Shown in pieces: positions 3,521-52,530 of a stretch of DNA of 64,000 bases. Source of the DNA: a virus; the IMG/VR virus record IMGVR_UViG_3300043411_001639, positions 64,001 to 128,000 of that record; one strand, 5' to 3'. Below the pieces are notes generated by a model that worked only from the letters and a program-made list of their open reading frames with translations, ran no database searches and was not told the origin of the DNA. Numbering within the stretch: the first letter of the stretch is position 1; each line of letters starts with the position of its first letter. The position numbers and the translations under genes were made by a program.

Positions 3521-4198
3521 GTGTCACAACTAACCTCTCTTAATAAATCCCACTATAGAAAAACGTATTCAAAACTAGGACATCATAAACCTGTCATTTT
3601 AAATCTTGACAGACAGTATGATATTAATCACATGGTATTTGATAGAAACCATCTATCTTTACCTTGTGCGCCTAATCTTGGAGTAACTTCCAGTATTTAT
3701 TATGCTGAGTATGAAGAAGGTTATGTTTATTTTAATAATGAAACGGAAGTTCAGACTTTTTTCACAACAACTTTCACTGATGAACCTTTTACAATAATTG
3801 AAATACTTCCAGCTTCAGGATTAGAAAACATTAATTTTTCTATCTACCAAACAACACCTGTAAAATTTGTCATAAACACTTCTGCTAATTTTACAGGTTG
3901 GTTTAAGTATTATTCTGTTCATTCTGCGCTAGGATATCCAACAACAGTTTTATCAGGTGCTATTCCTAAAGAATGTACTGCTGGTTCATTAACTATAGTT
4001 AGTGCTGATACCGTTTCACAATCCTTAATTCCTTCATGCTCAGTTGTTCCAACCACCAGTAGCTTCTGTCTATATGAGACTGTATTAGATTTAGGTAGCA
4101 GCTTTTTCTCTGGTAGTATAAATTCTTCTGGTAGTTTCTTGACCGGGAGTTTTTCAGCCAATTATACAAACAAGATCAACTATATTAATTTGGTTTAA
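3521..4198 (+). CDS. Hypothetical virion-type beta-rich protein (GTG start)
   Basis: Ser/Thr-rich; C-terminal FSGSINSSGSFLTGSF; preceded by CTACTTA. Confidence 0.45.
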   Translation: MSQLTSLNKSHYRKTYSKLGHHKPVILNLDRQYDINHMVFDRNHLSLPCAPNLGVTSSIYYAEYEEGYVYFNNETEVQTFFTTTFTDEPFTIIEILPASGLENINFSIYQTTPVKFVINTSANFTGWFKYYSVHSALGYPTTVLSGAIPKECTAGSLTIVSADTVSQSLIPSCSVVPTTSSFCLYETVLDLGSSFFSGSINSSGSFLTGSFSANYTNKINYINLV

Positions 4199-4201
4199 CT
4201 C

Positions 4202-4208
4202 ATAGTTA
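4202..4208 (+). promoter_or_regulatory. Putative late promoter motif ATAGTTA
   Basis: Heptamer 12 nt upstream of ATG 4221. Confidence 0.35.
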
Positions 4209-4220
4209 TTTTAGGATAAT

Positions 4221-5324
4221 ATGGCATACGATTTTAGAGCTAATCAAATCAGAACCGAAAAACTTATTGTTTCTTCAGCCTTGGGACAACATAGGATACT
4301 TATATATCCTGTTGATGTTGCAACGGATTTGCAAGGAACAGTAGGTTTTAACACATCAGCAATTGGAACTGATATATTGTTTTTTGTCTCAGGTGCCAAG
4401 GGAGGAAGAGGAGGAGCAACAGCAAATGTAGGATTGTTTGGAGGTGATCTTGTTGTATCAGGCAACTTGATATTATTATCTGGATTGTCGGGTTCTTTGC
4501 AGAGACTTAGTTCCGGGATTCCTTATTTGCTAGCAGGACCAAATATCAATGTAGTTACAAACTCACTAGGACAGATAGAAATTAGTAGTTCGGCGGGTGC
4601 TTCTGATCCTAGCCCTTGGAAAGAATCAAATGGAATCAACATTCAAACAACTTCTTCAGTTGCCATAACAGGCAATCCTCTGTTTTTTGCTCCAGATGTT
4701 GGTTCTGATGTTTATTTTTATGTCTCAGGAAGTTCTACGAAAAAAGCTGTTTTTGGTGGAGATGTTGTTCTGTCGGGTTCTTTTCTTGTTGGAAACAACA
4801 ATTCTATTAACAAAATAAACGGGCAACTGTCTGGTTCAATCAGAAATACAGTTGATGGACTTGCATTTTTAACTGGTTCTGGTGCTACAATAAACATCAA
4901 CTATAACACAGTAGGACAATATGAAATTTCATGTTCTACACCTTTGTTTTATTCCCAAAGTCTTATTAAACGAATAGAGTTGTCTGGTTATCAAACAACT
5001 AGTTCTAGTATATCAACTAGAATTGGAGGCACATATTTTAGAGTTCAAGACTATACAAATCCAGGTTTTATAAGTTCTAGTATTTTTGAATCAGTTGGTT
5101 TTGTTACCGCAGGAACAGGATCTATAAGTTTATACAACATTACTGATTCTATTATTGTTTCTTCTTTGAATTTTTCTGAGACCTCTGACACTTATAAATC
5201 ACAAGCATTTGTTTTGAATTCAACTGCTTCTGTTATTTTAGAAGTAAGATGCAATTATGTTTCTGGTTCTAGTTTTGACTATGCTGGTTTTATGGGGACT
5301 AAAATATGCATTAATTACTCATAG
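4221..5324 (+). CDS. Putative tail fibre/appendage protein with internal duplication
   Basis: Gly/Ser-rich beta-repeat character; two copies of GxDxxFxVSG...FGGDxVxSG...LSGS...GQxEISxS. Confidence 0.55.
   Translation: MAYDFRANQIRTEKLIVSSALGQHRILIYPVDVATDLQGTVGFNTSAIGTDILFFVSGAKGGRGGATANVGLFGGDLVVSGNLILLSGLSGSLQRLSSGIPYLLAGPNINVVTNSLGQIEISSSAGASDPSPWKESNGINIQTTSSVAITGNPLFFAPDVGSDVYFYVSGSSTKKAVFGGDVVLSGSFLVGNNNSINKINGQLSGSIRNTVDGLAFLTGSGATININYNTVGQYEISCSTPLFYSQSLIKRIELSGYQTTSSSISTRIGGTYFRVQDYTNPGFISSSIFESVGFVTAGTGSISLYNITDSIIVSSLNFSETSDTYKSQAFVLNSTASVILEVRCNYVSGSSFDYAGFMGTKICINYS
4362..4938 (+). repeat. Diverged protein-level tandem duplication within ORF 4221
   Basis: IGTDILFFVSG..GLFGGDLVVSGNL..LSGSLQRLSSGIPYL..GQIEISSS vs VGSDVYFYVSG..AVFGGDVVLSGSF..LSGSIRNTVDGLAFL..GQYEISCS. 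Confidence 0.7.
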
Positions 5325-5338
5325 AACTAATTAGTTCT

Positions 5339-8803: not shown

Positions 8804-9667
8804 ATGAGTGAAATTGTAATCGTAGATACTAAAGTTCATCTACCTGTTCTTAGTTCAATTCCAGAAGAAGAAATGAAAAAACATGTTAGTTATTCAGAAC
8901 TGGCTGTTTGGGCAGGTTGTAACTTCAGACACAAGTTGAAATATGTTGACAAAATATCTCTTGATAAACCATCAGAACATACTTTGTTTGGACATGCAGG
9001 ACATGATATATTACAAGAGTATTTAAAAACTAGAGAGATTAAAGATCTAGATAAAGCAGTTGAAGCATTAACATTAAAATTTGCTGAAAACAACATAGTT
9101 GTAAAACAATCGGAATTCCAAGATACTCTTAAGCCTATCATGGAAGAAATACCTTCCTTCTTGGAAGAACATTTTAAAGACTGGACATTTGTTAGTTCAG
9201 AAGAACAGTTGTTTGAAACTATCAGTGGTACTACAAATGAAAGATCATTTAAAGGATTCGTTGACGGAATCATTCGTGTACCAAAATCATCTAGATTAAA
9301 AACAGGTAAATCAGATGAGTATGAGTATCATATTATTGACTGGAAATTTTGTGGATGGGGTTGGGATTTTAAAAAGAAAACAGATCCAATAAAAATCATG
9401 CAGTTGAGTTTATATAAACATTTTGTTGCACAAAAAATGAACATTGATCCAAAAGAAATAAGATGTGGTTTTGTTTTGCTAAAAAGACTACCAAAAAAAG
9501 GTGGTTCAAGATGTGAACTAGTTCCAATTAGTGTTGGTCCCAAAACAACCGAGTTTGCTTTAACTACACTTAAAACGATGTTGTTTTATGGTAAAAAAGG
9601 ACTATATCCAAAGAACAAAAACAACTGTTTGTATTGTGAATATAAAAACACTACTCACTGTCCTTGA
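8804..9667 (+). CDS. PD-(D/E)xK exonuclease, Cas4/RecB-like, probable Fe-S cluster
   Basis: SYSEL...C near N-term, GHAGHDILQ, GFVDG, IIDWK, QLSLY, C-terminal CLYC-x6-CP. Confidence 0.85.
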   Translation: MSEIVIVDTKVHLPVLSSIPEEEMKKHVSYSELAVWAGCNFRHKLKYVDKISLDKPSEHTLFGHAGHDILQEYLKTREIKDLDKAVEALTLKFAENNIVVKQSEFQDTLKPIMEEIPSFLEEHFKDWTFVSSEEQLFETISGTTNERSFKGFVDGIIRVPKSSRLKTGKSDEYEYHIIDWKFCGWGWDFKKKTDPIKIMQLSLYKHFVAQKMNIDPKEIRCGFVLLKRLPKKGGSRCELVPISVGPKTTEFALTTLKTMLFYGKKGLYPKNKNNCLYCEYKNTTHCP

Positions 9668-9679: not shown

Positions 9680-10696
9680 ATGTTGATATCTTCTTATACT
9701 ACTTCAAGAAATGCAATAGAACTAAACTATCCTATCAGAGAATCTGTTAAATCATTATTAGGATTTTCCGACGAGGTAATAGTGTTTGATACTTCAGGAA
9801 CAACTCATACAGTTGATGAATTAACCAAATGTTTTAAACTAGAACCCAAAGTTAAAATCGTACATGAACCTTGGGATTGGACAGTTAAAAATTTTGGTGT
9901 TTTAGACGGTCAATCAAAAGCACAAGCTAGAAATTTGTGTAAAGGTCATATTCTATGGCAGAATGATAGTGATGAAATTGTTCATGAACAACATCAAAGT
10001 TTTATCAGACCTTTAATTGAAAGTTATAAAAACTGGGATAGCTATAGTTTGATAGGATTACCTGTTGTTGAGTTTTGGGGTTCTAGTGGGAAAGCTAGAA
10101 TTGATATAAATCCTTGGAAATGGAGAATTTCAATAAATGACAAAAAAATTACTCACGGTATTCCCGGTAGATATAGATTTTATGACAAAGATGGCTTGTT
10201 ATTTGCCAAACCCGGAACAGATGGTTGTGATTATATATACTCTGACTCACTAGTTCCTGTTCCTTGTGACTTGTCTGTTATGCATTATACAGATAGAGTG
10301 TTTGGTTTACAACAAGCTGCTATAACAAATGAAAAAGCTGCACACTTGTATGAAGGTTGGTTTAATATTATGTTGGCTGATACTCCAGGTGTGTTCCATT
10401 ATAGTTGGTGGAATATTGAAAGAAAAATAAAACACTATAGAGAGTTTTGGACTAAGTTCTGGCCGTCACTTTATAATGAATCAGTTGACGAAAGACAAAA
10501 TCCATTTTTCCCTGGAATGTTGTGGTCAGAAGTTTCTGATCAACAAATAAAACAAAAAGCACAAGAGTTAGAACAAGGTACAGGTGGTTGGATATTTCAT
10601 AAACCTTGGGATGGTACCAAACATTGTTCTATTAAACAAGTTAATATGGAACATCCAAAGTTTATCAAAGACTGGATAAGAACTATCAATGCTTAA
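9680..10696 (+). CDS. Glycosyltransferase (GT2-like, GT-A fold)
   Basis: YPIRESVKSLLGFSDEVIVFD, ARNLCKGHILWQNDSDE (DxD), HYSW. Confidence 0.75.
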   Translation: MLISSYTTSRNAIELNYPIRESVKSLLGFSDEVIVFDTSGTTHTVDELTKCFKLEPKVKIVHEPWDWTVKNFGVLDGQSKAQARNLCKGHILWQNDSDEIVHEQHQSFIRPLIESYKNWDSYSLIGLPVVEFWGSSGKARIDINPWKWRISINDKKITHGIPGRYRFYDKDGLLFAKPGTDGCDYIYSDSLVPVPCDLSVMHYTDRVFGLQQAAITNEKAAHLYEGWFNIMLADTPGVFHYSWWNIERKIKHYREFWTKFWPSLYNESVDERQNPFFPGMLWSEVSDQQIKQKAQELEQGTGGWIFHKPWDGTKHCSIKQVNMEHPKFIKDWIRTINA

Positions 10697-11585
10697 TACT
10701 ATCATATTCTCAAAAGATAGAGCTTGTCAACTTGAAGCTTTGTTAAGAACTTGGACAAATAATGTAACAGGAGTAGGAAATCTTGGTAAAACTCACATTA
10801 TCTGGAAAGCTTCAACTCCTGATTTTGAATTGGGATATCAAAAACTAATAGATTTATATCCTTGTTCAAAGCAGTTTAATTTTCTTAAAGAAGAATCATT
10901 TTCAGAACAAGTTTGTGAGTTGTTAGAAACATGTAACACAGCAACAGATCTTGTTATGTTTCTTGTTGATGATATCATGTTTAAAGAACCTTGGTGGCTA
11001 GACAAAGAACTAGAAGATCTATTAGTGATGAGTAAAGAAATATTTTGTTTATCACTCAGACTATCAGAACATATCAATTACTGTTATCCTACTTCATCAA
11101 TAGTTACCAAACCCTCCAGTTATACAGTATTGATAAATGGTTATTCTTGTGGTAATTTAGCTGAATTTGAATGGAAACATGGAGAAGGTGATTGGGGCTA
11201 TCCAATGTCACTAGATGGTCATGTGTTCAGAGCTAGTTTCATTAGACCAATAGTTTTTAAACTAAGAAAGTATTTTAACAATCCAAACTCACTTGAAAGT
11301 GTTCTATCAGAAACCTGTAACAGAGGAGTCTTTGATTATCTTCCTAAAATGTTATGTTATCATTTCAACAGTAAAATCATAAATATCCCAGCTAATAGAG
11401 TTCAAACCACTTGTCTTAACAAACACAATGACAACCTAACTCCAGAAGAACTTAACAAGTTGTTTGTAGAACTAAATCAAGTTGTTGATACTGACAAATT
11501 TTTTAAAATTAAAAACAACAGTCCTCACATGAACCTACCACTGGTATTACATGATGATCCCAGATCGGATATTATGTACCAATGA
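10689..11585 (+). CDS. Putative glycosyltransferase (GT-A fold)
   Basis: IIFSKDRACQLEALL, MFLVDDIMF, YPMSLDGHVF; coupled within the glycan cluster. Confidence 0.6.
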   Translation: MLNTIIFSKDRACQLEALLRTWTNNVTGVGNLGKTHIIWKASTPDFELGYQKLIDLYPCSKQFNFLKEESFSEQVCELLETCNTATDLVMFLVDDIMFKEPWWLDKELEDLLVMSKEIFCLSLRLSEHINYCYPTSSIVTKPSSYTVLINGYSCGNLAEFEWKHGEGDWGYPMSLDGHVFRASFIRPIVFKLRKYFNNPNSLESVLSETCNRGVFDYLPKMLCYHFNSKIINIPANRVQTTCLNKHNDNLTPEELNKLFVELNQVVDTDKFFKIKNNSPHMNLPLVLHDDPRSDIMYQ

Positions 11586-12568
11586 ATGTTTTAGTGGTAG
11601 GAGGTGCAGGGTTTATAGGTTCTCACTTGGTTGAAGAGTTGTTGGAAACCCATTCAAACAGAGATCAACATCATGTATCAATAGTTGATGATCTTTCAAC
11701 AGGTTCTTTAAAGAATATTGAACATTTAAATTATTTTTCAAAATATAATATTGATCATAATAAAAACTATTCAAACTGTACTTTGCATAAAGAAAAAATC
11801 AATGATTATATTAAAGATCGTCCTAATGCTAAGTTTGACTATGTGTTTAGTCTGGCAGCCCAAACCAGTGTACCAGAAACAGTAGAAGATCCTGTAGGTT
11901 CAAACCATAAGAACGTTACAGAAACACTTGAGTTTGTTGATTGGGTTTTTACTAAATGTAAACCGAAGAAGTTTATCTGGTTTAGTTCAAGTGCTGTGTA
12001 TGGTAACAACATGTCTGTTAAAGAAAATCAACCATTCAAAAACAGCACTGTTAGTCCATATGCAATACAGAAAAAACTAATAGAGGATTACATAGAGTTT
12101 TATAGTAATAAACACAGAATACAATCCTTAGTTTTTAGACCTTTTAACGTGTTTGGAACAAGACAAAATCCTGATGGAAAATATCCAAACTTAATCTCTA
12201 GTTGGGGTAAAGCACTAGCAACTAATCAACCATTAATCATTTATGGGTCTGGAGAACAAAAAAGAGATTTTGTTTCTGTCAAACAACTAGTAAAAAAGGT
12301 TTTATCAGATGTTTCAGTCACTGATTATCCAACTTTTATTGTCAAAGATATTGGAACAGGATTTAATTTTAGTGTAAATGAGATTTTATCTTTAGTAAGA
12401 AGTGAAATTGATTCTTGCCTTTTAGTAAAGTTTTTTCCTGAAAGACTTGGAGAAGTTAAAGAAACTTTGTCTGCAACAAAACTAGATCATTCTTCAAACA
12501 AACTTAAAATATGTAAAGAGATAGTTGATACTCTAGAATGGTATATGGTAAACTATGCAGTTTCATGA
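11582..12568 (+). CDS. NAD-dependent nucleotide-sugar epimerase (GalE/WbpP-like extended SDR)
   Basis: GGAGFIGS, DDLSTG, SSSAVYG, catalytic YAIQK, FNVFG, GSGEQKRDFV. Confidence 0.88.
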   Translation: MNVLVVGGAGFIGSHLVEELLETHSNRDQHHVSIVDDLSTGSLKNIEHLNYFSKYNIDHNKNYSNCTLHKEKINDYIKDRPNAKFDYVFSLAAQTSVPETVEDPVGSNHKNVTETLEFVDWVFTKCKPKKFIWFSSSAVYGNNMSVKENQPFKNSTVSPYAIQKKLIEDYIEFYSNKHRIQSLVFRPFNVFGTRQNPDGKYPNLISSWGKALATNQPLIIYGSGEQKRDFVSVKQLVKKVLSDVSVTDYPTFIVKDIGTGFNFSVNEILSLVRSEIDSCLLVKFFPERLGEVKETLSATKLDHSSNKLKICKEIVDTLEWYMVNYAVS

Positions 12569-13307
12569 AAAATTAGGGGTTTTAATTCCCGTACATAACG
12601 CAGAAGAAACAATAGTAAGAAGTCTTCGCTCCGTAGTTGATGCTTGTAAATTATCAAAGGTTGAAACCAAGATAGTAGTTGTTTTAAACGGCTGTACAGA
12701 TAACACTCTTATAGAGGTAATGAATTTTAGTGAATCTCAAACAAAAGATTCAAACATTGTTATTGAAGAAACATTTTCTGAAAAAGGTCTTGTTCCTGCT
12801 TTAAACAAGGGATTACAATCTCTAATTAACAAGGGTTGTTCATTAATAGCAAGACAAGACGCAGATGATAGTTGGCATAAAAACAAAATAGTTAAACAAC
12901 TAGCTTATCTTCAAGAACATAAAACTGTAGATATTTTAGGTACACAGATCAACTTAGTAACACCTGGAACATGGGAAACATTGGAAAGAACTCATAACCC
13001 AACAACTCATGTAAACATAAAAGAATGGTTACTAAGAGGACATAATCCTATAGCTCATCCTTCTGTTGTGTTTAGAACATCAATTTTGAATAAACTTGGT
13101 GGTTATCAAGACTTGTTTCCAATGGCAGAAGATCTATGGTTATGGAGCAGTGCTGTTATAGCAGGATATAATCTTGCTAATCTTCCAGATGTTCTTGTTG
13201 ATTATACCAGTGTTCACAATCCAAACTATAATCCAAAGTCACCAAAGGTATTGGCAAATTGTTTGGGGAATATATTAGGAGCTCATTTGAATGAATCACA
13301 ACAATAA
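12555..13307 (+). CDS. Glycosyltransferase family 2
   Basis: VLIPVHN, GCTDNT, ALNKG, ARQDADD, HPSVVFR, AEDLWLW. Confidence 0.9.
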   Translation: MQFHEKLGVLIPVHNAEETIVRSLRSVVDACKLSKVETKIVVVLNGCTDNTLIEVMNFSESQTKDSNIVIEETFSEKGLVPALNKGLQSLINKGCSLIARQDADDSWHKNKIVKQLAYLQEHKTVDILGTQINLVTPGTWETLERTHNPTTHVNIKEWLLRGHNPIAHPSVVFRTSILNKLGGYQDLFPMAEDLWLWSSAVIAGYNLANLPDVLVDYTSVHNPNYNPKSPKVLANCLGNILGAHLNESQQ

Positions 13308-14040: not shown

Positions 14041-14044
14041 TACA

Positions 14045-17418: not shown

Positions 17419-17425
17419 GAAAAGT

Positions 17426-18210: not shown

Positions 18211-18221
18211 AAGTTGATAGC

Positions 18222-22523: not shown

Positions 22524-22526
22524 TAT

Positions 22527-40593: not shown

Positions 40594-40607
40594 TCAATAC
40601 TAGTTGC

Positions 40608-43533: not shown

Positions 43534-43542
43534 ATATAACAT

Positions 43543-46500
43543 ATGGGAAATAACTTTGGAATACCTGTTAGAAACAATACTTCGGCAGCTTATGGTGGTT
43601 TAACTACACAGCCTTCTTCTGCTCCTCTTCCAACAGCTACAGCACCTATTCCCACTACAACTAATACTTTTTTAGTTCCTGAAGCATCTGTTCCACAGTC
43701 TCCTGTAGCTAGTGGGTTTCAAATGTCTACTACTATTGTACCAGGAGTTAGTGTTCAACGAACTGGAACAGCAACAGTTTTTATTGATAGAACAATACCA
43801 CCTACTGTTTATCAAACAGAAAATCTTACAGTTCAGTTTGGTGGTGCTAACAACCCAGAAACTAGAAATATTATTAACGAAGGTTTATCAGCTTTGAGAC
43901 CAGAAGTTTTATTACAATTTTCACCAAGAAATTTAATAGATACAAACAATCAACTAACGGATCTTGGTAAACTAGCAGATTTTAACTATAAACTCAGAAA
44001 ACTTAAACTAGATGTTTCATTGGTTACTTCAAGATCACTATCTGAATCTGAAACAGTTAAATTTGAACAACTAGATTTATCTTATAGACAACAGTACGAA
44101 ACTTGTTTTAACAATATCCAAAGTAAAAAAATCAAATCACAAAAGAAAAAAACCATCAAAGCATTGTTTGATATAAAGTCAATACCAGACAGTTATTTTG
44201 GTGATGGCTTTTTAAGTTTTAAACAAATATTTTCAAACTATCTTGGATATTCAAATCAAAGTTATAATAGTTTTACAGATACAAAAATTCTTGGTCAACT
44301 TATTCTTGATTTAAGAAATGCTCTTGAAAACTATTCTAGTAACTTATTAAGCATCAGAGATCTAGATAGAACAAATGATCTCAACCCTTACACATATGAT
44401 AAAACTTTTAACGTTAACGGTTTAAAAATAGAACAATTAAGATCTAATTCAAGAATTAAAAATCTCTTCAATGAAGGAGTGTTCAGAAACTTAGTAACAA
44501 GATTACCTCCTCAACCTCTTGATAAGATAAAACTAATGATTCATTTGCTTTCAAAAGAATTGTTAGTTTCAAAAAATCTTTCTAATAGTCAAACCAGAAC
44601 AAAACTTGTTCAAATGTTTGGAGCATCAGCTAATCCTGATGGAAATCCTTTTGATAATATATTTGGGGATACTGGAGTTTCAATATTTGATCCTGTTGTA
44701 TCTGCCACTAACAACTCAATAGTTTCTTTGTTGAATTATGTGAATCAAAAAGTTCTACCATTTGAAAACAGATATCTTCAAGAACAAACTACAAACTCTG
44801 TGTTCATACCAGGACACGAATATTTTCTTGATACTACTGATCGTATAAATCTTGATGTTTTCACAATAGGATTGTCACGAAACATAACAGAACTAACAGA
44901 TATCCTCACTAAATTATTATCTCTGGATGTTAACCCACAAACTTCTAATGTTGTGTTTAGTAGTCTTGCCATCCAGTTTGGACAAACTTTAGCTGGAAGA
45001 AATACAAATAACATATCACATGCATTGTTTAAACTGGCATCAGAAGATATTCAACTGCAATATTTATTGTTTAACTATTTGTTTTTAGCGGGATTAATCA
45101 TAACTCTTGGTGAAGAAGATAATGTTTTTATACGTTCTTATAAAAAAGATACTCAAAGAACAGAAATTGATGTTGATACTCTTTATGAAGAAATAGGATT
45201 AGTAATTACAAGAATAGTTGAAAGAGTGGTTGGTTTACTTTCTTCAAACTCAAACAATGAGCTTAATATAGTAAACAGTTCATTTACTAGTTTAATAACA
45301 ACTCTTGGTTTAACAAGAGTTTATACCCAAGATCTGACACAAACTTTGAGAGGCTTTGTAAACGCAGATCCGATTAATTCAAAAAATTCATTATTTAAGA
45401 TGTTCATTGATTTCATTCTTGAGTTAGAGAACATCAACTCATCAAATGGAACAAAAATTTTTCTTTTACAGGATGACAGTGGAAGAACAAGATTTAATTT
45501 TCTCAGTTCTTCTACAATGTTGTTTTTGTTTTATCAAACTATGATAGGATTATCTGCTATGTTTATTCCTTATGAATTTGCAGGTCCTGTAATAAACAAC
45601 AGTTTTAACATTGAATTTGATACTTCTGAGTTTGAAAGACTACACAACCTATTGACCAATCGTACAAATCCAGTTCCAGAATATACAGCAATTTTCAATG
45701 TACTGGAAAAAGAAACAACTTTTGTCAAACAAGGACTAAATTGTTTCAACAAACTTAATTCAAGGTTTTCAAACATTCAACAACTGGCAGAGCCCTATTT
45801 TCTTCAGTCTAGTTTTGTAACAGAATATCAGACAAAACTAGCTTTATCCGTTATTAATTCAGGTAGATTTAAAAATAAGTTTGACGGAAGTTATGGAATA
45901 TTACCCGTGACATTAGCTGAAAAACAAACAGTAATAGATTTTTCAAAAAACTTTGGAGAAAATAATTTTAAAGTATTTGGTATAGGTTTACCTAATGGGT
46001 TTGTAGAAAACTTAAACAAAAACATTATTATTACCGAAGATGCTGGTTCGGACCAAGAAACTTCTGTGATAAAAATCAATGTTTTCTGTAAACTTTTACA
46101 ATACCCAAACATTGTGTTAAAACCACAATCTTATCTCTTTGATCTTAATATTTTCAACCTGAAACAAATATCAACTGGTTTTTACAACTCAGTTGATCAG
46201 GTAATAAACAATAATTTTGGTACCACCTATGTTGATGGAAATTTCTCTATAATTGAAGGATATAATGATATTCTAATTCAAAAGGAAGAACTAAGAAATC
46301 ATAAAACAAGTGAGTTGTTAAAAACATACATGTGTTTAGTTTCTGGGATCAAGATGTATGAAGAAGAATTTTTTATCACACCAAAACTTTTTACAAACAA
46401 AACTAAAGATAATTTATTTAATAGCCTTGACGTAAGAAATTTAACCTCTGTGTTGACAGGGCAGAAATTGTTTGATAGAATTTTGTTTTTGTTGGTTGAT

Positions 46501-46650
46501 TTAAACCAGTTTGAAATTGATTACAGTAAAACAAATAAAAATAGTCTCGGAGCTCAAACATTAGAAAAAATAAAAATTGTTAATGACAGAACTAGTTTTG
46601 ATAAAAACGATCTTGTTTTAGTTGATATATTCTTCACTGTTGGAAAATAA
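43543..46650 (+). CDS. Large hypothetical virion protein with Pro/Thr-rich N-terminus
   Basis: 1035 aa in the structural operon; TTQPSSAPLPTATAPIPTTT start. Confidence 0.5.
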   Translation: MGNNFGIPVRNNTSAAYGGLTTQPSSAPLPTATAPIPTTTNTFLVPEASVPQSPVASGFQMSTTIVPGVSVQRTGTATVFIDRTIPPTVYQTENLTVQFGGANNPETRNIINEGLSALRPEVLLQFSPRNLIDTNNQLTDLGKLADFNYKLRKLKLDVSLVTSRSLSESETVKFEQLDLSYRQQYETCFNNIQSKKIKSQKKKTIKALFDIKSIPDSYFGDGFLSFKQIFSNYLGYSNQSYNSFTDTKILGQLILDLRNALENYSSNLLSIRDLDRTNDLNPYTYDKTFNVNGLKIEQLRSNSRIKNLFNEGVFRNLVTRLPPQPLDKIKLMIHLLSKELLVSKNLSNSQTRTKLVQMFGASANPDGNPFDNIFGDTGVSIFDPVVSATNNSIVSLLNYVNQKVLPFENRYLQEQTTNSVFIPGHEYFLDTTDRINLDVFTIGLSRNITELTDILTKLLSLDVNPQTSNVVFSSLAIQFGQTLAGRNTNNISHALFKLASEDIQLQYLLFNYLFLAGLIITLGEEDNVFIRSYKKDTQRTEIDVDTLYEEIGLVITRIVERVVGLLSSNSNNELNIVNSSFTSLITTLGLTRVYTQDLTQTLRGFVNADPINSKNSLFKMFIDFILELENINSSNGTKIFLLQDDSGRTRFNFLSSSTMLFLFYQTMIGLSAMFIPYEFAGPVINNSFNIEFDTSEFERLHNLLTNRTNPVPEYTAIFNVLEKETTFVKQGLNCFNKLNSRFSNIQQLAEPYFLQSSFVTEYQTKLALSVINSGRFKNKFDGSYGILPVTLAEKQTVIDFSKNFGENNFKVFGIGLPNGFVENLNKNIIITEDAGSDQETSVIKINVFCKLLQYPNIVLKPQSYLFDLNIFNLKQISTGFYNSVDQVINNNFGTTYVDGNFSIIEGYNDILIQKEELRNHKTSELLKTYMCLVSGIKMYEEEFFITPKLFTNKTKDNLFNSLDVRNLTSVLTGQKLFDRILFLLVDLNQFEIDYSKTNKNSLGAQTLEKIKIVNDRTSFDKNDLVLVDIFFTVGK

Positions 46651-46655
46651 ATACT

Positions 46656-48308
46656 ATGGTAATTGCAAAGAAAATACAAATTCTACCCACTAAACAATCA
46701 ACCACAATTGACATTTCAGAAATTGAAGATCTTAGAGGAAAGTTTGTATACAACTATTTTGAAAGAGATGAAAAAACAAACAACCCAAGTTTAGTTGATT
46801 CAAGAAAAATAAGTTTGACTTGGACTCCTAATGTCATATGGAATAGAAGGGACTTGGTTGATTCAATAATCATAGGAGATCATTATGATCTTATTATTCA
46901 AGAAGATGAGTTTAACAATCACAATCTAAAAACAATTGATTTAAATCAAACAACTGGGATTAATCAGGATGTTTTCCGACTTCTTGAAACTAGTTTTACA
47001 GGTTTGTCTTCAGGAAGTTTATTAGATCGTACCAAATCTCTTTATGAACAAACTGACGAAGAACTAGATCAACAGTTTATAGGAGGATTAGTTCATTCTC
47101 AAAAACAAGGTCTTGGAGTTTATTTTGATACCGATAGCACAAACATCAAAAATGAAAACCTAATATTTCCTGTTGGAATAACTCCTAAGTTTATGGATAA
47201 AATCATTGAAACAATAGATGAAAACAATATTGGTTTTAACGGTTTTTTGACTGCTGAAGAGCGAGAACAAATCATTGTTATGGCTAATGAATCCAAAGAA
47301 AAAAGAAATACAAATGTATTCTCAATGGAAGATTATGACCACCAGTTAGACAAAATTTTTTCACTAAGAAACATAAAAACAGATTCAAACTATCAGCCTG
47401 TGTTTCAGCCTGTTGGTTATGTTGTTGAAAAATTTAACAAGTCAACAAACATGTTTGAACAACCATTGTTTATTGAAAATATTACTATAAGTAAAACAGA
47501 AGATATCAATGTAAAATATAATCAGACTTATTGTTATAGGATTAGAACAGTAGCTTATGTTGAATTTACTGGTCTAAACAGTGAAACAAATGAATATTTG
47601 GTTTTTTCTTTTCTCGTTGGATCAAAACTAAGTAACTTGTTAGAAGTTGAATGCGTTGAAACAACCCCTCCTCCAGTAGTTACAGATTTTGATGTCACCT
47701 GGGATTTTGTTAAAAATCTTCCTAAGATAAGCTGGAGTTTTCCTCCCAACAAACAACGAGATATTAAAAAGTTTCAAGTGTTTAGGCGTAGAACCATCAC
47801 AGAACCTTTTGAATTGATTAAAATGTATGATTTTGATAACAGTACAGTGAAAACACTATCACAAGAACAACCCAATCCAGAGATAGTAGAACTAATAGAT
47901 AATCCTCCATTGTTTTATTGGGATAATAGATTTATCAAAACAAATACAATGATTTATTCTGTTTGTTCAATAGATGCTCATGGTTATAGTTCTGGATATT
48001 CAATGCAGTTAGAAATATCCTGGATTTCTAATAAATTTAAGAAGAGACTAATATCGGTTTCAGGAGCACCTAAAGCTTATCCAAACTTGTTTTTGAACCA
48101 AGATGCTTTTGTAGACTCAATAAAAACAGAAGAGTTTACAGGTTTAGATCTATATTTTAATCCTGAGTTTATTGAGTTGACAGACAAGAATTCAAGAAGT
48201 TTAGAGTTTTTAAAAACTGGTGCAAACGATACATATTCATTAGTAATGATAAACATTGACAATCAAAAACAAGCAACTTTTGATATTAGCTTAAGGAACA
48301 GAGAGTAA
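46656..48308 (+). CDS. Virion protein with FN3-like domains
   Basis: VKYNQTYCYRIRTV, PPPVVTDF, ISWSFP, FQVFRR, YSVCSIDAHG..S.YS. Confidence 0.6.
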   Translation: MVIAKKIQILPTKQSTTIDISEIEDLRGKFVYNYFERDEKTNNPSLVDSRKISLTWTPNVIWNRRDLVDSIIIGDHYDLIIQEDEFNNHNLKTIDLNQTTGINQDVFRLLETSFTGLSSGSLLDRTKSLYEQTDEELDQQFIGGLVHSQKQGLGVYFDTDSTNIKNENLIFPVGITPKFMDKIIETIDENNIGFNGFLTAEEREQIIVMANESKEKRNTNVFSMEDYDHQLDKIFSLRNIKTDSNYQPVFQPVGYVVEKFNKSTNMFEQPLFIENITISKTEDINVKYNQTYCYRIRTVAYVEFTGLNSETNEYLVFSFLVGSKLSNLLEVECVETTPPPVVTDFDVTWDFVKNLPKISWSFPPNKQRDIKKFQVFRRRTITEPFELIKMYDFDNSTVKTLSQEQPNPEIVELIDNPPLFYWDNRFIKTNTMIYSVCSIDAHGYSSGYSMQLEISWISNKFKKRLISVSGAPKAYPNLFLNQDAFVDSIKTEEFTGLDLYFNPEFIELTDKNSRSLEFLKTGANDTYSLVMINIDNQKQATFDISLRNRE

Positions 48309-48313
48309 TAATA

Positions 48314-49027
48314 ATGGGAATTATACAAAATGATACCAACAACATCATTGTTGATGCGGTTATAACAGATGCAGGGAGACAAGCTATTGCAAGAAACGAT
48401 GGTAGTTTTTCTGTTGTTAAATGGGCTGCTTCTGATGAGGAAGTAGACTATTCAATCATTCAACAGTTTGGTAAAACAAATGGAGAAGCTAAAATAGTAG
48501 TTAACACTCCTGTTTTTGAAGCTTTAACTTCTCAACAGTTCTCTCAGAAATATAAACTGATGAGTATTAGTAATCCAGCTTTAATACGTCTTCCTACCCT
48601 TAAAATTACTGGAGAGGGTGTTGATGCTAGTATAAATGCAATTGCTATTGGAAATACAACCATTAAAAGGAGAACTGTAACAATCTATCAAGATATTTTG
48701 AATGAAACAACAATAGATCTTGAACTGAGAGACCAATCTTTTATGATTACTATGCCAAGTAGATTTCTACAGGTTAGAAGTATCCCACCAGATGACATAG
48801 ACAGTGTTTATAATGCTCTTTATTTTCTTACAAGAGATTCAGGAGAAACAACCCTTGGTGGCAGTAGACTAAGTTTTACACTTGAAACTAAATCAATTTC
48901 CGAAACAGATTTCCAGATTTACGGAACAAGAACCAACAAAAACATCATTAAATGTTACATTAAAATTGCAGGGATACAAAGTGGTGCTGTTCTTGATATA
49001 GAAGTATCAATAACCAAAACATCATAA
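48314..49027 (+). CDS. Tail/baseplate protein (tail-collar-fibre-like N-terminus)
   Basis: IVDAVITDAGRQAIA...VVKWAASDEEVDY, TPVFEA. Confidence 0.55.
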   Translation: MGIIQNDTNNIIVDAVITDAGRQAIARNDGSFSVVKWAASDEEVDYSIIQQFGKTNGEAKIVVNTPVFEALTSQQFSQKYKLMSISNPALIRLPTLKITGEGVDASINAIAIGNTTIKRRTVTIYQDILNETTIDLELRDQSFMITMPSRFLQVRSIPPDDIDSVYNALYFLTRDSGETTLGGSRLSFTLETKSISETDFQIYGTRTNKNIIKCYIKIAGIQSGAVLDIEVSITKTS

Positions 49028-49048
49028 CTGGAAGAATAACAAACAACT

Positions 49049-50188
49049 ATGAGTACCTTTAAAGAATTCGGTCCCAATGATATTAAAACAACCCAAGACT
49101 ATTTTGAAGTCATAACGGATGTGTTGCAAACAGATATTTCTTCAAGTGCTACAAGAAGAAAATCTGAAACCTTTGTTTCAGGAGGGATTGGTCCCGGTGT
49201 TACTTCTTCTCTTTGGCATACTGTGTTTGACCAAGACTATAGTCTTCAAACAGCTAACCCAATCATGAATATCACTTTTGGATTAAGTCCTAGAAGTAGT
49301 TTGGTTTCTGGATCTGTTACTTATACAGATTCTAGAACAGGGAAACAATATTTTCCTTCACAAAGTTTGATGATGAGAGAAAAAACTTTTATCTATAGAG
49401 AGTTTGCGCAAACTCTTCTTGGAAACAGTAATCTTGATTTCCAACTTATCTCAGGTTCTACAACCTCTTATATACGAGAACCTTTGTTTCTTACCTTTAC
49501 TAGACTTGTAGCAAGAGATGGATTAAAAAGAGAAAGTTTTGCCATTAAAGCATTTGTTTCTTCTGCTATTGTTACTGGTCCTCCAACAAGTTCAAAGATC
49601 TATACAGATGTAGGTTCAACTTCAAACATTGAAACAGGTGTTGGTGGTCAGGTATCAGTATTAGTGGATTCTAGTAATACAAACTATCCAGTAGGATTAT
49701 TGTACCTTGATAGAGGAATAGCTATTCTTGATACTCAGAGAATATTCTATGTCTCTCAGTCAATGACAGGTTCAATCAGAGCTGTTAACAGTGCTGGAAC
49801 TCAGTTGTTTTCAGGTAGTTGTAATCAATTCTTTGTTTCTGCTTGTTTGGATGACATTCTTGATCATGTATGTACTGTAAGATTTAGTTCGTCAAATGAA
49901 ACAGCAATAGCATTCAAAAACCTAACAACCATCAATAGTACAATCTATTACTGTAGATTTGATGCAGATGAATTCAACTACTCATCTAACCCAACATATA
50001 CAGATTCAAACAACAGGATAGTTGTAATTGAACCAGGGCAAGAAGCTAGACAAAAATCATTCACTTTTGTTACCAGTATTGGCGGATATGACGCTCTTGG
50101 TAGATGTTTATGGAATGGGAAACTTTCAAGACCTGTGATGAAAGATAGTCAAAGATCCTTTGTGATAGAGGTTGCAAATGATTTCTGA
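49049..50188 (+). CDS. Tail/baseplate protein, C-terminal paralogue of 50188
   Basis: EFNYSSNPTY...FVTSIGGYD...KLSRPVMKD. Confidence 0.55.
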   Translation: MSTFKEFGPNDIKTTQDYFEVITDVLQTDISSSATRRKSETFVSGGIGPGVTSSLWHTVFDQDYSLQTANPIMNITFGLSPRSSLVSGSVTYTDSRTGKQYFPSQSLMMREKTFIYREFAQTLLGNSNLDFQLISGSTTSYIREPLFLTFTRLVARDGLKRESFAIKAFVSSAIVTGPPTSSKIYTDVGSTSNIETGVGGQVSVLVDSSNTNYPVGLLYLDRGIAILDTQRIFYVSQSMTGSIRAVNSAGTQLFSGSCNQFFVSACLDDILDHVCTVRFSSSNETAIAFKNLTTINSTIYYCRFDADEFNYSSNPTYTDSNNRIVVIEPGQEARQKSFTFVTSIGGYDALGRCLWNGKLSRPVMKDSQRSFVIEVANDF

Positions 50189-52530
50189 TGACTCTACAAA
50201 AAATCTACCCAGAATTCATTGAAACAATCAGCCTCAATACTAACCCAAAAAGGAACTATATTAGTAGTTCCTCTGGAATTACAGGAGACCTATATGTTTT
50301 CCCACGTAGAATTCTAAGGGAAAAACAAATAAAACTAACTTCTAGTAGTTCTGTATTTACAGAACAAACGGATTTAAACGACTATTTAGACAGTGCTAAG
50401 AATTCAGCTAGGGTATCTAACTCAAACAACTTTGCTCTGAACAGTTTTCTAACGGCTGTTAATACTCAGCCAACTAACCAGAACAAACAACAGAAAGTAT
50501 TAATTTACAGAGAAGTTCCAGGTTTTGATACTGACAAAGCCCAACAACTAAAGAAAAACCTACAAAAAGTATTAATACCTTTTTACAAACCGGAATCAAC
50601 TACTTTTGATTTTAGTTATAACAATTTTAACAGTTTAAACTTCTTTCGTAGTTCGGATACTCCTACAAGTTCTGTACTGTTATATCCGAACTTAATAACT
50701 GTTGGTTCAGATAGTACAATAACAGGAAGATACATCCCTTCAACTGGATTTAGTTTTGATCTTTGGGTTAAACCTGGATATACCAACACTAAAGCTGCTA
50801 CTATATTTCACCTTAGTTCTGTGTTTGCACTGTCTGTATTAACTGGTTCACTGAAGAATGAAAGAGATGAACCACTAGGATACAGACTGTTGTTACAAAC
50901 AAGTGCTAGTTGTGACACCTCACCATCAACCATCAATCTTAATTCTCTCCCAACAGGTAGTTTTTTATCAGATAACAACTGTTTGTTAAAAAATCACTGG
51001 CATCATGTTTCTGTTAGATGGGGAGGTTTAGCAGTTAACAATGGTACTGGTAGTTTCTATGTTGATGGAAACAACAAAGGTAACTTTGTTATCAGTAGTT
51101 CTACAATAGTTCCTCTAAGTTTCTCTCCTGGTAGAGATAACCCAAATGTTCTTTGTGTTGGTAATTTCTATGAAGGAACCAACTCTGGAAGTGCATCAAC
51201 AGGTAAATTCTTTACTTCAACCATTGCTACAAGAGAAGGATTGGAACAGTTAACTGTTGATACAGGGTTTGCACCCTCCAGTTATTTCTTTGATCATACA
51301 TTTAGCGGAGAACTATCAGAACTAAAAATCTATAACAGATATATAACAGACTCAGAGATAAGATTCTTACAAACAAATAGTCCATTACCATCAACACAAG
51401 GGTTGATATTCTATCTACCTCCATTCTTTACCTATGAATCTCCAACCAGGACATTCCATGCAGCTAACGGAGGAGTTTTAATATCACCTTTCCAAACAGA
51501 GGATGGAACTACTAATACTCCATTCAACAAAGACCTAGCATACGGTCTAGGAGGTCATTATATCAACCTGGAAAATAATACTAGGGAAATGGTCAACGGA
51601 ATATATCCGCGCCTCTGGGAGCTCACTGGTAGCCTTCTGTTGAATAGTCTAAATACTCCGATGACTGCTAATGAAATACTCTACTCAACAGGTTCTGTTA
51701 AAAAAGCTTCTCTTACTGTTCTACCTTCTGACAATGGAAACTATTTTCCCAACTATGATTGGTTTGGTAGTTTAAATAAAACTAGGTTTGTTAATGATTT
51801 TGGTAGTCAAGATCTATCAAGGATAACCTTGAACGATATACTTCCTTCAAGAACAGAAGCCTATAACAATTTGTCTGGGAGTTTAGCTTCAGATCTAGTT
51901 GGTTCAAGACCTGAAAACATCAGCGCAAGTATAACAAACAACCAAGCTTATACCCTACAACAAAGAACAGGTGATAGTTCTTCCAGACAAGTTGTTATGT
52001 TTAACATCAGTAACTTGTTCTATGGTGACAAGATAAAACCCAACAGTTTAACTATTGTTGATACAGACCTATCAGGATCAGATGGAATTGTAAGAATAAC
52101 TCTCAAAGATGATGGCTGTGGTAATTTATATAGAGCAGATAGTTCTGGAAGTTTAGGACATGCAACCTGGAACTCAGTAGGAAACGTGTTTTACAACGAA
52201 GGAATAGTTTTAATCAAACATCCTTCCCTATATTTTTTTGGTAAGAATGAATTTAGAATGACATTTCAAGGGGAGAGAAACGTTCATGTTCTTAGTTTAA
52301 ATCTGTTCCTAGCACCTTATCAATTTACTTCTTCTTCTAATCCTAGTTTTGTTGAACTATCCAGTTCAATATCAACTAACATCAATGAAGAAGATAGGAA
52401 GTTTGTTTATGTTACTAACGTAAACATCCATGATGACAACTTGAATGTTATAGCTAAAACTTCATTTGCTCAACCTTACAGATTAAAACACTCAGACAAA
52501 GCACTTGTTAAAGTAAAACTAGACTTCTAA
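50188..52530 (+). CDS. Tail/baseplate protein with LamG/ConA-like domain
   Basis: FSFDLWVKP, WHHVSVRW, FYVDG, GELSELKIYNR; C-term SSNPSF...YVTNVNIHDDNLNVIAK...KLDF. Confidence 0.65.
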   Translation: MTLQKIYPEFIETISLNTNPKRNYISSSSGITGDLYVFPRRILREKQIKLTSSSSVFTEQTDLNDYLDSAKNSARVSNSNNFALNSFLTAVNTQPTNQNKQQKVLIYREVPGFDTDKAQQLKKNLQKVLIPFYKPESTTFDFSYNNFNSLNFFRSSDTPTSSVLLYPNLITVGSDSTITGRYIPSTGFSFDLWVKPGYTNTKAATIFHLSSVFALSVLTGSLKNERDEPLGYRLLLQTSASCDTSPSTINLNSLPTGSFLSDNNCLLKNHWHHVSVRWGGLAVNNGTGSFYVDGNNKGNFVISSSTIVPLSFSPGRDNPNVLCVGNFYEGTNSGSASTGKFFTSTIATREGLEQLTVDTGFAPSSYFFDHTFSGELSELKIYNRYITDSEIRFLQTNSPLPSTQGLIFYLPPFFTYESPTRTFHAANGGVLISPFQTEDGTTNTPFNKDLAYGLGGHYINLENNTREMVNGIYPRLWELTGSLLLNSLNTPMTANEILYSTGSVKKASLTVLPSDNGNYFPNYDWFGSLNKTRFVNDFGSQDLSRITLNDILPSRTEAYNNLSGSLASDLVGSRPENISASITNNQAYTLQQRTGDSSSRQVVMFNISNLFYGDKIKPNSLTIVDTDLSGSDGIVRITLKDDGCGNLYRADSSGSLGHATWNSVGNVFYNEGIVLIKHPSLYFFGKNEFRMTFQGERNVHVLSLNLFLAPYQFTSSSNPSFVELSSSISTNINEEDRKFVYVTNVNIHDDNLNVIAKTSFAQPYRLKHSDKALVKVKLDF

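What the first reader, a model, noticed from the sequence alone, without database searches (positions are those of the whole stretch)
3521..52530. Candidate phage virion O-glycosylation system: glycan cluster plus an [S/T]-G-S motif in selected structural proteins
Seen: about 60 [ST]GS tripeptides (hand count) in ~5,300 aa of twelve virion-type ORFs (e.g. 33722: ~12; 50188: ~9; 37869: ~8; 4221: ~7), plus many SAS/SSS/TSS variants. PhoH, primase, Mre11-Rad50 and terminase have about 1 in ~2,600 aa, and I found none in the gp6-like wedge or the 1035-aa ORF 43543. The same window encodes ~9 glycosyltransferases, nucleotide-sugar enzymes and methyltransferases just upstream of the late sigma and baseplate operon, with no flippase, polymerase or lipid-carrier enzymes visible. 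Established: some mycobacteriophages and giant viruses glycosylate their virions. Inference: [S/T]-x(small)-S is an acceptor sequon on exposed tail/baseplate proteins for a cytoplasmic, phage-encoded glycosylation pathway.
Basis: partly seen in the sequence, partly recalled or inferred. Interest (0 to 1): 0.85.

Follow-up and report, generated by a model that had tools for sequence, protein, structure and literature searches.

The report
Ser/Thr-Gly-Ser tag on phage tail proteins
The outer tail, baseplate and fibre proteins of this large uncultured phage and its relatives carry the short motif Ser/Thr-Gly-Ser about six times too often; the excess occurs only in phages that also have a conserved pair of sugar-transferase genes, so it is probably, though not chemically shown to be, an attachment code for a phage-made sugar coat.

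Summary
In 14 non-paralogous virion proteins, [ST]GS occurs 72 times against 14-16 expected, even when shuffling within 10-residue blocks. The rest of the proteome is at expectation (22 vs 19). SGS and TGS are the two most enriched tripeptides; NGS, DGS, AGS, GGS, SGT and TGT are not enriched. Thirty-seven codon spellings exclude a DNA-level cause. Hydrophobic residues flank the motif, and in two models it sits in loops next to beta-strands.

Three protein families replicate the excess (121/27, 818/191, 1343/205). So do the cultured relatives immuto, Mel-JY01 and RM378, and 69 viral contigs (2290/655). T4 and cyanophage S-RIM8 show none.

The conserved correlate is an overlapping GT4 gene pair (22527, 23900), not the whole sugar island, which is variable. 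LR756508 belongs to the same clade, keeps the first GT, lacks the second, and has no enrichment.

No membrane glycan machinery is encoded. Published mass spectrometry of immuto DNA shows no glycosylated bases.

The sequon reading is the best explanation (about 0.45) but has no chemical proof. A structural strand-capping motif remains a serious rival.

This scan flagged the same motif on other genomes (e1-5644667, e1-5764702).

The parts
3521..4198 (+). Motif-rich ORF (225 aa): 3 [ST]GS vs 0.4 expected, clustered near the C-terminus in a fibre-like SGS...SGSF.TGSF string
   Evidence: no PHROG match
4221..5324 (+). Tail-fibre-like protein (367 aa): 7 motifs vs 1.5 expected. It has a duplicated unit DVxF[FY]VSG...FGGDxxVSGxL that is shared with 106 homologues
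   Evidence: the family total is 818 observed vs 191 expected; some homologues carry PF13884 or PF12219
5339..6280 (+). Motif-rich ORF (313 aa): 4 vs 0.9 expected
8804..9667 (+). PD-(D/E)XK nuclease. It is conserved beside the GT pair or sugar island across the clade
   Evidence: Pfam PF12705; orthologues in L018, L009 and L020; same layout in immuto
9680..22523 (+). Variable sugar island: GT2-type genes (9680, 12555, 15542 weak), GT6 (13291), SDR epimerase/dehydratase/reductase genes (11582, 14652, and the PseB/FnlA-like 16369), methyltransferases (20561, FkbM-like 21756, 14045 weak), plus unknown ORFs. It is shared only with the 76% relative
   Evidence: no polytopic membrane protein
22527..23903 (+). 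First gene of the conserved GT4 pair (458 aa). It is a core gene of the clade. Its stop overlaps the start of the next gene by 4 nt. Here the catalytic signature reads E-x7-Q; most orthologues have E-x7-E
   Evidence: Pfam PF00534; orthologues in 18 of 20 long clade contigs at 630-710 bits and in immuto, Mel-JY01, RM378 and LR756508; best PDB match is chlorovirus B736L, 3oy2; motif alignment
23900..25120 (+). Second gene of the conserved GT4 pair (406 aa), with E-x7-E intact. Its presence tracks the motif excess
   Evidence: Pfam PF00534 and PF20706; found in immuto (4e-73), Mel-JY01 (4e-75) and, divergent, in RM378, but absent from the whole LR756508 record
30300..32150 (+). gp6-like baseplate wedge (616 aa): 0 motifs vs 0.5 expected. 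Inner baseplate marker
   Evidence: PHROG 219 and 6; also 0 in the orthologues
32147..33697 (+). Motif-rich baseplate-module ORF (516 aa): 4 vs 1.0 expected. One TGS is invariant in 5 orthologues at about 35% identity
33722..37084 (+). LamG-domain baseplate protein (1120 aa): 12 motifs vs 1.8 expected, all in loops, turns or disordered segments of the model
   Evidence: the family of 120 has 1343 observed vs 205 expected
37081..37863 (+). Module ORF (260 aa): 1 motif vs 0.3 expected, not significant
37869..39443 (+). Motif-rich ORF (524 aa, novel fold): 8 vs 1.1 expected. Two sites are near-universal in 28 homologues; the others turn over
   Evidence: no PDB fold match
39433..41567 (+). Two module ORFs (386 aa: 2 vs 0.6 expected; 319 aa: 4 vs 0.4 expected)
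41560..49027 (+). Four motif-poor ORFs inside the same module (657, 1035, 550 and 237 aa): 2 motifs in 2,479 aa. They have no family match and may be buried parts
   Evidence: the L001 orthologues also have 0
49049..52530 (+). Two motif-rich distal ORFs (379 aa: 4 vs 0.8 expected; 780 aa with a LamG domain: 9 vs 1.3 expected)

Best explanation
The motif hydrophobic-[Ser/Thr]-Gly-Ser-hydrophobic, with Ala or Ser tolerated in the middle, is a clade-specific linear tag. It sits on loops next to beta-strands in the outer virion proteins: peripheral baseplate, fibres, sheath insertion domains and the neck adaptor. It is most likely the acceptor signal for O-glycosylation in the cytoplasm. In this model the conserved, overlapping GT4 gene pair (22527 and 23900) adds the first sugar(s) to the motif on newly made virion proteins. 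The variable island (9680-22523) supplies unusual donors (6-deoxy-HexNAc-type sugars from the PseB/FnlA-like dehydratase and the reductases) and extends and O-methylates the chain, so the coat differs between lineages. What is shown: the motif, its specificity, its distribution, and its co-occurrence with the GT pair. What is inferred: that the motif is modified, which enzyme does it, and which residue is the acceptor.
For: (1) The excess is 5-6-fold and survives local shuffling. It is confined to 14 non-paralogous virion proteins.

(2) The specificity is that of a recognition motif and not a generic glycine turn. S/T is required at position 0 and Ser is preferred at +2. NGS, DGS, AGS and GGS are at or below 1x. 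The motif's S/T positions are more conserved than other serines (about 0.80 vs 0.60), while its Gly is no more conserved than other glycines (0.66 vs 0.65) and is often replaced by Ala or Ser.

(3) Secondary-structure contexts are heterogeneous but are mostly loops, turns or disordered segments, or the ends of strands and helices. All 11 sheath motifs lie in the insertion domains, and inner parts lack the motif.

(4) The excess replicates in three families (121/27, 818/191, 1343/205), with many lineage-specific sites: 85 of 93 motif columns are occupied in under half of the sequences.

(5) Motif and GT pair are both present in this phage, L001, L002/L005, immuto, Mel-JY01 and RM378. Eighteen of 20 long clade contigs have the GT. 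Both are absent in T4 and S-RIM8. LR756508 is inside the clade by the terminase tree (100/100), keeps the first GT, lacks the second and has no excess: 102/72 overall and 41/34 in Ser-rich ORFs.

(6) The pair is conserved across phages of three host phyla, which argues for an acceptor carried by the phage itself.

(7) DNA is an unlikely acceptor. Immuto DNA contains canonical dA, dC and dT plus non-glycosylated fdPreQ1 (bioRxiv 10.1101/2023.04.13.536721). The contig has no ThyA homologue, TET or C5-methyltransferase.

(8) No flippase, polymerase, priming transferase or oligosaccharyltransferase candidate is present, since there are no polytopic membrane proteins.
Against: No chemistry exists: nothing shows that any virion protein is modified.

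In the LamG family, 56% of motif copies fall in 8 conserved columns at strand boundaries. In the fibres, the motif is embedded in longer conserved repeats: DVxFYVSGS...FGGDxxVSGxL here and F[ST]GSF[ST]GSFxGDGSxL in immuto. A structural role explains both patterns equally well.

The per-protein count is not held steadier than independent site turnover predicts (variance 5.9 vs 4.9).

The association is nearly a single phylogenetic event. A basal position for LR756508 is not rejected (p-AU 0.12).

Two incomplete contigs without the GT still show the motif (G007 at 35% and G016 at 65% complete).

RM378's second GT has a degenerate catalytic motif, yet RM378 shows the excess. This phage's first GT reads E-x7-Q.

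Neither GT matches any characterised protein glycosyltransferase family.

Hydrophobic flanks are unusual for an exposed acceptor site.
Confidence: 0.45

Rival explanations
1. Structural motif. [ST]GS is a strand-capping or turn element (an ST-turn followed by a small residue) used by the beta-sandwich, LamG and fibre-shaft folds particular to this clade's outer virion proteins. The GT pair is an unrelated core gene that acts on something else.
For: The motifs sit at strand-loop boundaries with hydrophobic residues on the strand side. Eight conserved columns hold 56% of copies in the LamG family, and some sites are invariant at 35% identity. Fibre copies are part of longer conserved repeat units. 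There is no count homeostasis.
Against: The carriers are not paralogous and include at least one novel fold, and contexts vary among loop, helix end, strand end and disordered segments. Gly is not preferentially conserved and is exchanged for Ala or Ser, whereas the hydroxyl residues are conserved. Other Gly turns (NGS, DGS, GGS) are not enriched. T4, S-RIM8 and the in-clade LR756508, which has a homologous wedge protein, lack the excess. Eighty-five of 93 motif columns are lineage-specific.
Confidence: 0.3
2. The motif is a recognition tag for a different clade-specific factor: another serine modification (for example phosphorylation or acylation), a fibre or baseplate assembly chaperone, or a protease.
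For: The motif looks like a linear recognition signal confined to virion proteins. Nothing ties it chemically to sugars. Earlier notes propose kinase-like genes elsewhere in this genome.
Against: No candidate writer is known to be clade-wide. The putative kinase ORFs have no homologue in the complete RM378 genome or in the stretches of other relatives that I fetched, and the Pfam Pkinase model finds nothing in any of four genomes. The only enzyme pair found to co-vary with the motif is the GT4 pair.
Confidence: 0.15
3. The glycan genes modify phage DNA (as T4 glucosylates 5hmC) or the host surface, and the motif excess is an unrelated feature.
For: Phage GT clusters that hypermodify DNA are common and can lie beside structural genes (bioRxiv 10.1101/2023.12.21.572611 and PMC13326640). 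The contig is only 43% complete by CheckV, so hallmark genes could lie elsewhere.
Against: Immuto carries the same GT pair and a sugar island, and its DNA shows only dA, dC, dT and fdPreQ1 by LC-UV-MS/MS. No ThyA homologue, TET/JBP or C5-methyltransferase was found. No membrane export or ligation machinery is encoded. The pair is conserved across hosts from three phyla whose envelopes differ.
Confidence: 0.07
4. Chance or Ser/Gly-rich composition.
For: The carrier proteins are Ser-rich (10-15%), and other Ser-rich tripeptides are about 2.5x enriched.
Against: 0 of 2000 global shuffles and 0 of 1000 block shuffles at any block size reach the observed count. Permuted motifs are 3-4 times rarer. 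Similarly Ser/Gly-rich proteins of T4, S-RIM8 and LR756508 show no excess.
Confidence: 0.01

Closest known systems
Mycobacteriophage virion glycosylation (Che8, Rita; Freeman et al. 2023, Cell Host Microbe 31:1216, cited through PMC11256854)
   Same: Phage-encoded glycosyltransferases, with glycans attached covalently to virion proteins to form a glycan shield. No eukaryote-style secretory pathway is involved.
   Different: There the modification is demonstrated; here it is inferred. According to the source read, the glycans there are on major capsid proteins. Here the candidates are baseplate, fibre, sheath-insertion and neck proteins, marked by a dispersed tripeptide. The hosts are not Actinobacteria. 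Homology between the GTs was not tested.
Chlorovirus capsid glycosylation by virus-encoded cytoplasmic GTs, and the GT-B enzyme B736L/A546L (PDB 3OY2/3OY7; PMC9614988)
   Same: The virus makes its own glycans with soluble GTs and uses atypical virus-specific sequons (NTXT on Vp54). B736L is the best solved-structure match by sequence for both GTs of the pair.
   Different: Chlorovirus glycans are N-linked. The acceptor of B736L is unknown. The match is modest (E 3e-9 and 3e-3) and amounts to general GT4/GT-B similarity.
Bacterial autotransporter heptosyltransferases (Aah/TibC) acting on AIDA-I/TibA (from my own knowledge)
   Same: Cytoplasmic O-glycosylation of many serines located in short loops between beta-strands of a folded, beta-rich surface protein.
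   Different: Those enzymes are GT9-type heptosyltransferases. None of the GTs here hits that family.
GtfA-GtfB O-GlcNAc transferase of streptococcal serine-rich repeat adhesins
   Same: Two adjacent GT-B-type genes working in the cytoplasm on Ser-x-Ser-type acceptor sequences.
   Different: The GtfA equivalog TIGR02918 scores 15 bits against a cut-off of 575. Both partners here generally keep E-x7-E. The acceptors are scattered loops and not long disordered repeats.

Membership tests
Phage/virus-encoded virion glycosylation system | The virus encodes its own glycosyltransferases and nucleotide-sugar enzymes | tested here: met
   GT2, GT4, GT6, SDR dehydratase/epimerase/reductase and FkbM-like methyltransferase genes
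Phage/virus-encoded virion glycosylation system | Glycans covalently attached to virion proteins (mass spectrometry or glycan stain) | not testable with these tools
   No proteomic or staining data for this phage or its cultured relatives were found in the literature held
Phage/virus-encoded virion glycosylation system | Modification depends on the viral GTs | tested here: inconclusive
   Only comparative evidence: the motif excess is present with the GT pair in 6 genomes or contigs plus 18 of 20 long contigs, and absent in T4, S-RIM8 and LR756508. The tree does not resolve whether these are independent events
GtfA/GtfB accessory-Sec glycosyltransferase pair | Match to the GtfA equivalog TIGR02918 above its cut-off | tested here: not met
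   15.4 bits vs a cut-off of 574.6, for ORF 23900 only
GtfA/GtfB accessory-Sec glycosyltransferase pair | Heterodimer of a catalytic and a non-catalytic GT-B protein | not testable with these tools
Both genes mostly retain E-x7-E, which does not fit a dead partner
Phage DNA glycosylation (T4-type, or 5hmC/5hoC hypermodification) | An enzyme that makes a hydroxylated base (ThyA homologue, or C5-methyltransferase plus TET/5mYOX) | tested here: not met
   No PF00303, PF12851 or PF00145 match in the 157-kb contig. Caveats: the contig is about 43% complete, and the PF12851 control did not ring anywhere
Phage DNA glycosylation (T4-type, or 5hmC/5hoC hypermodification) | Glycosylated nucleosides in virion DNA | not testable with these tools
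   For the cultured relative immuto, published LC-UV-MS/MS shows dA, dC, dT and fdPreQ1 only
Lipid-linked envelope glycan pathway (Wzx/Wzy, ABC exporter, or oligosaccharyltransferase) | Polytopic membrane proteins: priming transferase, flippase, polymerase, ligase or OTase | tested here: not met
   A hydropathy scan finds no ORF with 3 or more TM segments in the window, and only one 115-aa ORF in the whole contig
Maf flagellin glycosyltransferases / BAHT heptosyltransferases | Match to PF01973 (Maf) or to the GT9 heptosyltransferase family | tested here: not met
   None of the cluster proteins scanned matches these families

The most novel reading that the evidence does not exclude
A large clade of T4-related phages, many around 300 kb and with cultured members on Flavobacterium, Microcystis and Rhodothermus, writes a glycan coat onto the exposed loops of its tail, baseplate, fibre and neck proteins. 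It uses a previously undescribed O-glycosylation code (hydrophobic-[S/T]-G-S-hydrophobic) read by a conserved GT4 pair. A swappable sugar island diversifies the glycan between lineages, much like O-antigen serotypes.
Probability: 0.4. Interest if true: 0.85.

Novelty: new variant of a known kind. Interest (0 to 1): 0.68.

Why it matters
Protein glycosylation of phage particles has been demonstrated only in a few actinobacteriophages. No phage O-glycosylation sequon has been defined, to my knowledge and in the literature I searched. If this motif is an acceptor code, then glycan-coated tails would be a general property of an abundant environmental phage clade. That would bear on host recognition, resistance to proteases and grazers, and virion stability. 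It would also allow glycosites to be predicted from sequence. The hypothesis can be tested directly because three clade members are in culture (immuto, Mel-JY01, RM378). If the motif proves purely structural, it is still an unusually sharp, lineage-specific sequence signature of outer virion proteins and would be useful for annotating ORFs that otherwise have no assignable function.

Tried and rejected
- PHROG and Pfam searches of the motif-rich ORFs gave no matches, except LamG in ORF 50188 and, from precomputed annotation of its homologues, ORF 33722.
- Foldseek of the ORF 37869 model against the PDB gave no meaningful hit.
- Model coordinates are not exposed, so solvent accessibility could not be computed.
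- DNA-level cause: rejected, because the motif has 37 codon spellings.
- Paralogy among the carriers: rejected, apart from the two sheath genes.
- Count homeostasis (selection on number and not position): not supported; variance 5.9 vs 4.9 expected.
- Kinases as an alternative writer: the Pfam Pkinase model finds nothing in four genomes, and the putative kinase ORFs have no homologue in RM378 or in the fetched stretches of other relatives.
- A GtfB-like inactive partner: not supported, since E-x7-E is mostly retained in both genes.
- Tetrasphaera phage TJE1, with a single remote GT homologue, shows no excess (6 vs 4.9), so a weak GT4 relative alone predicts nothing.
- The fibre family was meant to supply GT-negative controls, but it proved almost confined to the GT-bearing clade.
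- The search for related loci with the broad alignment A4 failed for lack of a conserved stretch.
- Complex prediction for the GT pair was unavailable and nothing was folded.
- Megablast and tblastn of motif-rich ORFs against cultured phages gave no match.

Full report
**What the window is.** The window is bases 64,001-128,000 of a 156,732-bp viral contig with 35% GC. CheckV rates the contig about 43% complete. Verified genes:
- PhoH (2134), a Prim-Pol (6604) and a PD-(D/E)XK nuclease (8804)
- a sugar island (9680-22523) and two GT4 genes (22527, 23900)
- a gp6-like baseplate wedge (30300), followed by about 20 kb of large ORFs with no family match
- a primase (53686), a fused Mre11/SbcC-Rad50 (54700) and a large terminase (58267)

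Outside the window lie the portal, the major capsid protein, a gp13-like adaptor and two paralogous tail sheath genes of about 1,000 aa. The label 'late sigma' for 25446-26243 could not be verified.

- Twelve ORFs carry 60 [ST]GS against 10.3 +/- 3.2 in per-protein shuffles; 0 of 2000 shuffles reach that count. SGS and TGS are the two most over-represented of all tripeptides.
- Across the whole contig, 14 proteins carry 72 copies. Shuffling residues only within blocks of 10 to 50 residues gives 14-16 (maximum 32), so Ser/Gly-rich patches are not the cause.
- The other 38,627 aa carry 22 against 19.1 expected.
- Permuted motifs are three to four times rarer.
- The 61 instances counted use 37 codon spellings, so the signal is at the protein level.

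**Specificity.**
- In the xGy matrix only SGS (42/7.7) and TGS (30/5.1) stand out. SGT, TGT, NGS, DGS, AGS and GGS are near expectation.
- In [ST]xS the middle residue is Gly (5.7x), then Ser or Ala (about 2.5x). Lys and Arg are excluded.
- Hydrophobic residues fill positions -2, -1 and +3 in 50-60% of cases, against a 35% background.
- The carriers are not paralogues of each other, except the two sheath genes.

**Where the motif sits.**
- In the ORF 37869 model (pLDDT 68), the eight copies lie in the disordered N-terminus, loops, a helix end, strand ends and a hairpin tip.
- In the ORF 33722 model (two well-modelled LamG-type sandwiches), all twelve copies are in loops, turns or low-confidence segments, usually directly after or before a beta-strand. 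Only one of the twelve motif glycines lies in a regular element, against about 40% of all residues.
- All 11 copies in the two sheath proteins fall in residues 115-578, outside the conserved C-terminal sheath core. Those in the adaptor lie in its N-terminal extension.
- The gp6-like wedge and four large ORFs inside the same module (41560-49027) are motif-poor, here and in the 76% relative.

**Replication in families.**

| Family | Sequences | Observed | Expected |
|---|---|---|---|
| ORF 37869 | 28 (27-85% identity) | 121 | 27 |
| ORF 4221 (fibre) | 106 | 818 | 191 |
| ORF 33722 (LamG) | 120 of 1,316 homologues | 1,343 | 205 |

- In the LamG family there are 11.2 +/- 2.4 copies per protein. 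Eight alignment columns are occupied in at least half of the sequences and hold 56% of the copies. Eighty-five further columns carry the motif only in some lineages, exchanging with SGT, SAS, SSS and TSS.
- One-step neighbours of the motif are 2-3x enriched, while N/D/A/G at position 0 are at or below 1x.
- The S/T positions of the motif are more conserved than other serines (about 0.80 vs 0.60). The Gly is not more conserved than other glycines (0.66 vs 0.65).
- The per-protein count is not steadier than independent turnover predicts.

**Replication in other phages, and controls.**

| Phage or set | GT pair | [ST]GS observed/expected |
|---|---|---|
| Flavobacterium phage immuto (closest cultured relative; wedge ~30% identical) | both | SGS 33/7.3, TGS 28/6.0 |
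| Microcystis phage Mel-JY01 (wedge ~28% identical) | both | SGS 29/3.7, TGS 16/2.4 |
| Rhodothermus phage RM378 (42% GC) | first, plus a divergent second | 21/3.8 in its 64.8-76 kb block |
| 69 viral contigs with the fibre family, Ser-rich ORFs | 18 of the 20 longest have the first GT | 2,290/655 |
| T4, 20 structural proteins | none | 8/12.3 |
| Cyanophage S-RIM8, ~15,500 aa of structural protein | none | 17/16.1 |

In immuto and Mel-JY01 the same hydrophobic flanks appear and other xGy tripeptides are flat, apart from DGS in immuto (13/2.8), which belongs to its GDGS fibre repeat. The excess is therefore clade-specific and not a general property of T4-like tail proteins.

**What co-varies with it.**
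- All motif-positive genomes carry two adjacent GT4 genes of about 450 and 400 aa. Here they overlap by four bases.
- Only these two genes and the neighbouring PD-(D/E)XK nuclease are conserved across the clade. The other dozen sugar genes are shared only with the 76% relative, and immuto has a different set with aminotransferases and an acetyltransferase.
- The first GT is found in 18 of 20 long clade contigs at 630-710 bits. These include a complete 297,894-bp genome with terminal repeats. The two contigs without it are 35% and 65% complete and still show the motif.
- The informative case is LR756508 (484 kb, the whole record scanned). It groups with this clade on the terminase tree (100/100). 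It has the first GT (E 7.5e-65) and lacks the second. It shows no real excess: 102/72 overall, 41/34 in Ser-rich ORFs, and 2/1.5, 1/1.8, 1/1.9 and 2/2.2 in large Ser-rich proteins.
- The best tree nests LR756508 among motif-positive phages, which would imply a joint loss. However, a basal position is not rejected (delta lnL 8.9, p-AU 0.12).

**Rival acceptors.**
- DNA glycosylation needs a hydroxylated base. The contig has no ThyA homologue, TET or C5-methyltransferase.
- Published LC-UV-MS/MS of immuto DNA shows canonical dA, dC and dT, with fdPreQ1 replacing dG and no glycosylated nucleoside reported.
- No polytopic membrane protein is encoded, so an envelope-glycan pathway would have to borrow all host export machinery.
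- The pair is conserved in phages of Bacteroidota, Cyanobacteria and Rhodothermus, which favours an acceptor carried by the phage itself.

**The enzymes.**
- Neither GT reaches any curated equivalog. GtfA scores 15 bits against a cut-off of 575.
- The best solved-structure relative of both is chlorovirus B736L, a GT-B enzyme that binds GDP-mannose and has no known acceptor.
- Both genes mostly keep E-x7-E. This phage's first GT reads E-x7-Q, and RM378's second GT is degenerate there.
- ORF 16369 is PseB/FnlA-like (224 bits, below the cut-off), which suggests 6-deoxy-HexNAc-type donors.

**Verdict.** The motif is real, sharply defined, clade-wide and limited to outer virion proteins. The most economical reading is an acceptor tag for cytoplasmic O-glycosylation started by the GT4 pair (about 0.45). 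The main rival is a structural strand-capping motif (about 0.30). That rival is supported by the conserved half of the sites and by the longer fibre repeats in which some copies are embedded. Nothing here shows a sugar on a protein.

The same motif and GT-pair link were noted earlier in this scan on other genomes (e1-5644667, e1-5764702). I treated those notes as leads, and every figure above comes from tests on this genome and its relatives.

Noticed in passing
window 58267-60399: The large terminase is 710 aa, whereas relatives have about 470-555 aa. Matches to relatives cover residues 2-168 and 311-640, leaving an insert of about 140 aa that could be an intein or a homing-endonuclease-type insertion.
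   Followed up: partly
L012:652-3738 and L012:3766-6771 (genome 147652-153771, outside the window): Two tandem paralogous tail sheath genes (27% identical, about 1,000 aa each) with insertion domains of 500-600 aa. A duplicated sheath gene is unusual.
   Followed up: partly
window 13291-14040: A clear GT6-family glycosyltransferase (PF03414, E 6e-47), the family of the ABO blood-group transferases. It is rare in phages.
   Followed up: no
L011:12619-14373 (genome 140619-142373): A 584-aa homing/HNH endonuclease-like ORF lies immediately after the major capsid gene. The capsid protein itself has an N-terminal extension of about 340 aa.
   Followed up: no
whole contig; G014 (IMGVR_UViG_3300009181_000033): The contig is probably about half a genome. 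A complete clade member has 297,894 bp with direct terminal repeats, and homologues of ORF 33722 lie on contigs of 300-500 kb. The ORF 33722 family has over 1,300 members, so the clade is very abundant in metagenomes.
   Followed up: partly
window 25123-25449: A 108-aa ORF with one N-terminal hydrophobic segment directly follows the GT pair and is conserved in the 76% relative. An earlier scan note (e1-5642650) describes a small membrane protein in the same position on another genome.
   Followed up: no
L006 35299-38460 (immuto 'tail spike'): The unit F[ST]GSF[ST]GSFxGDGSxL recurs several times, and this protein also has strongly enriched SHAEG-type strings (HAE 10 vs 0.2 expected). It appears to be a repeat architecture particular to this fibre.
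   Followed up: no
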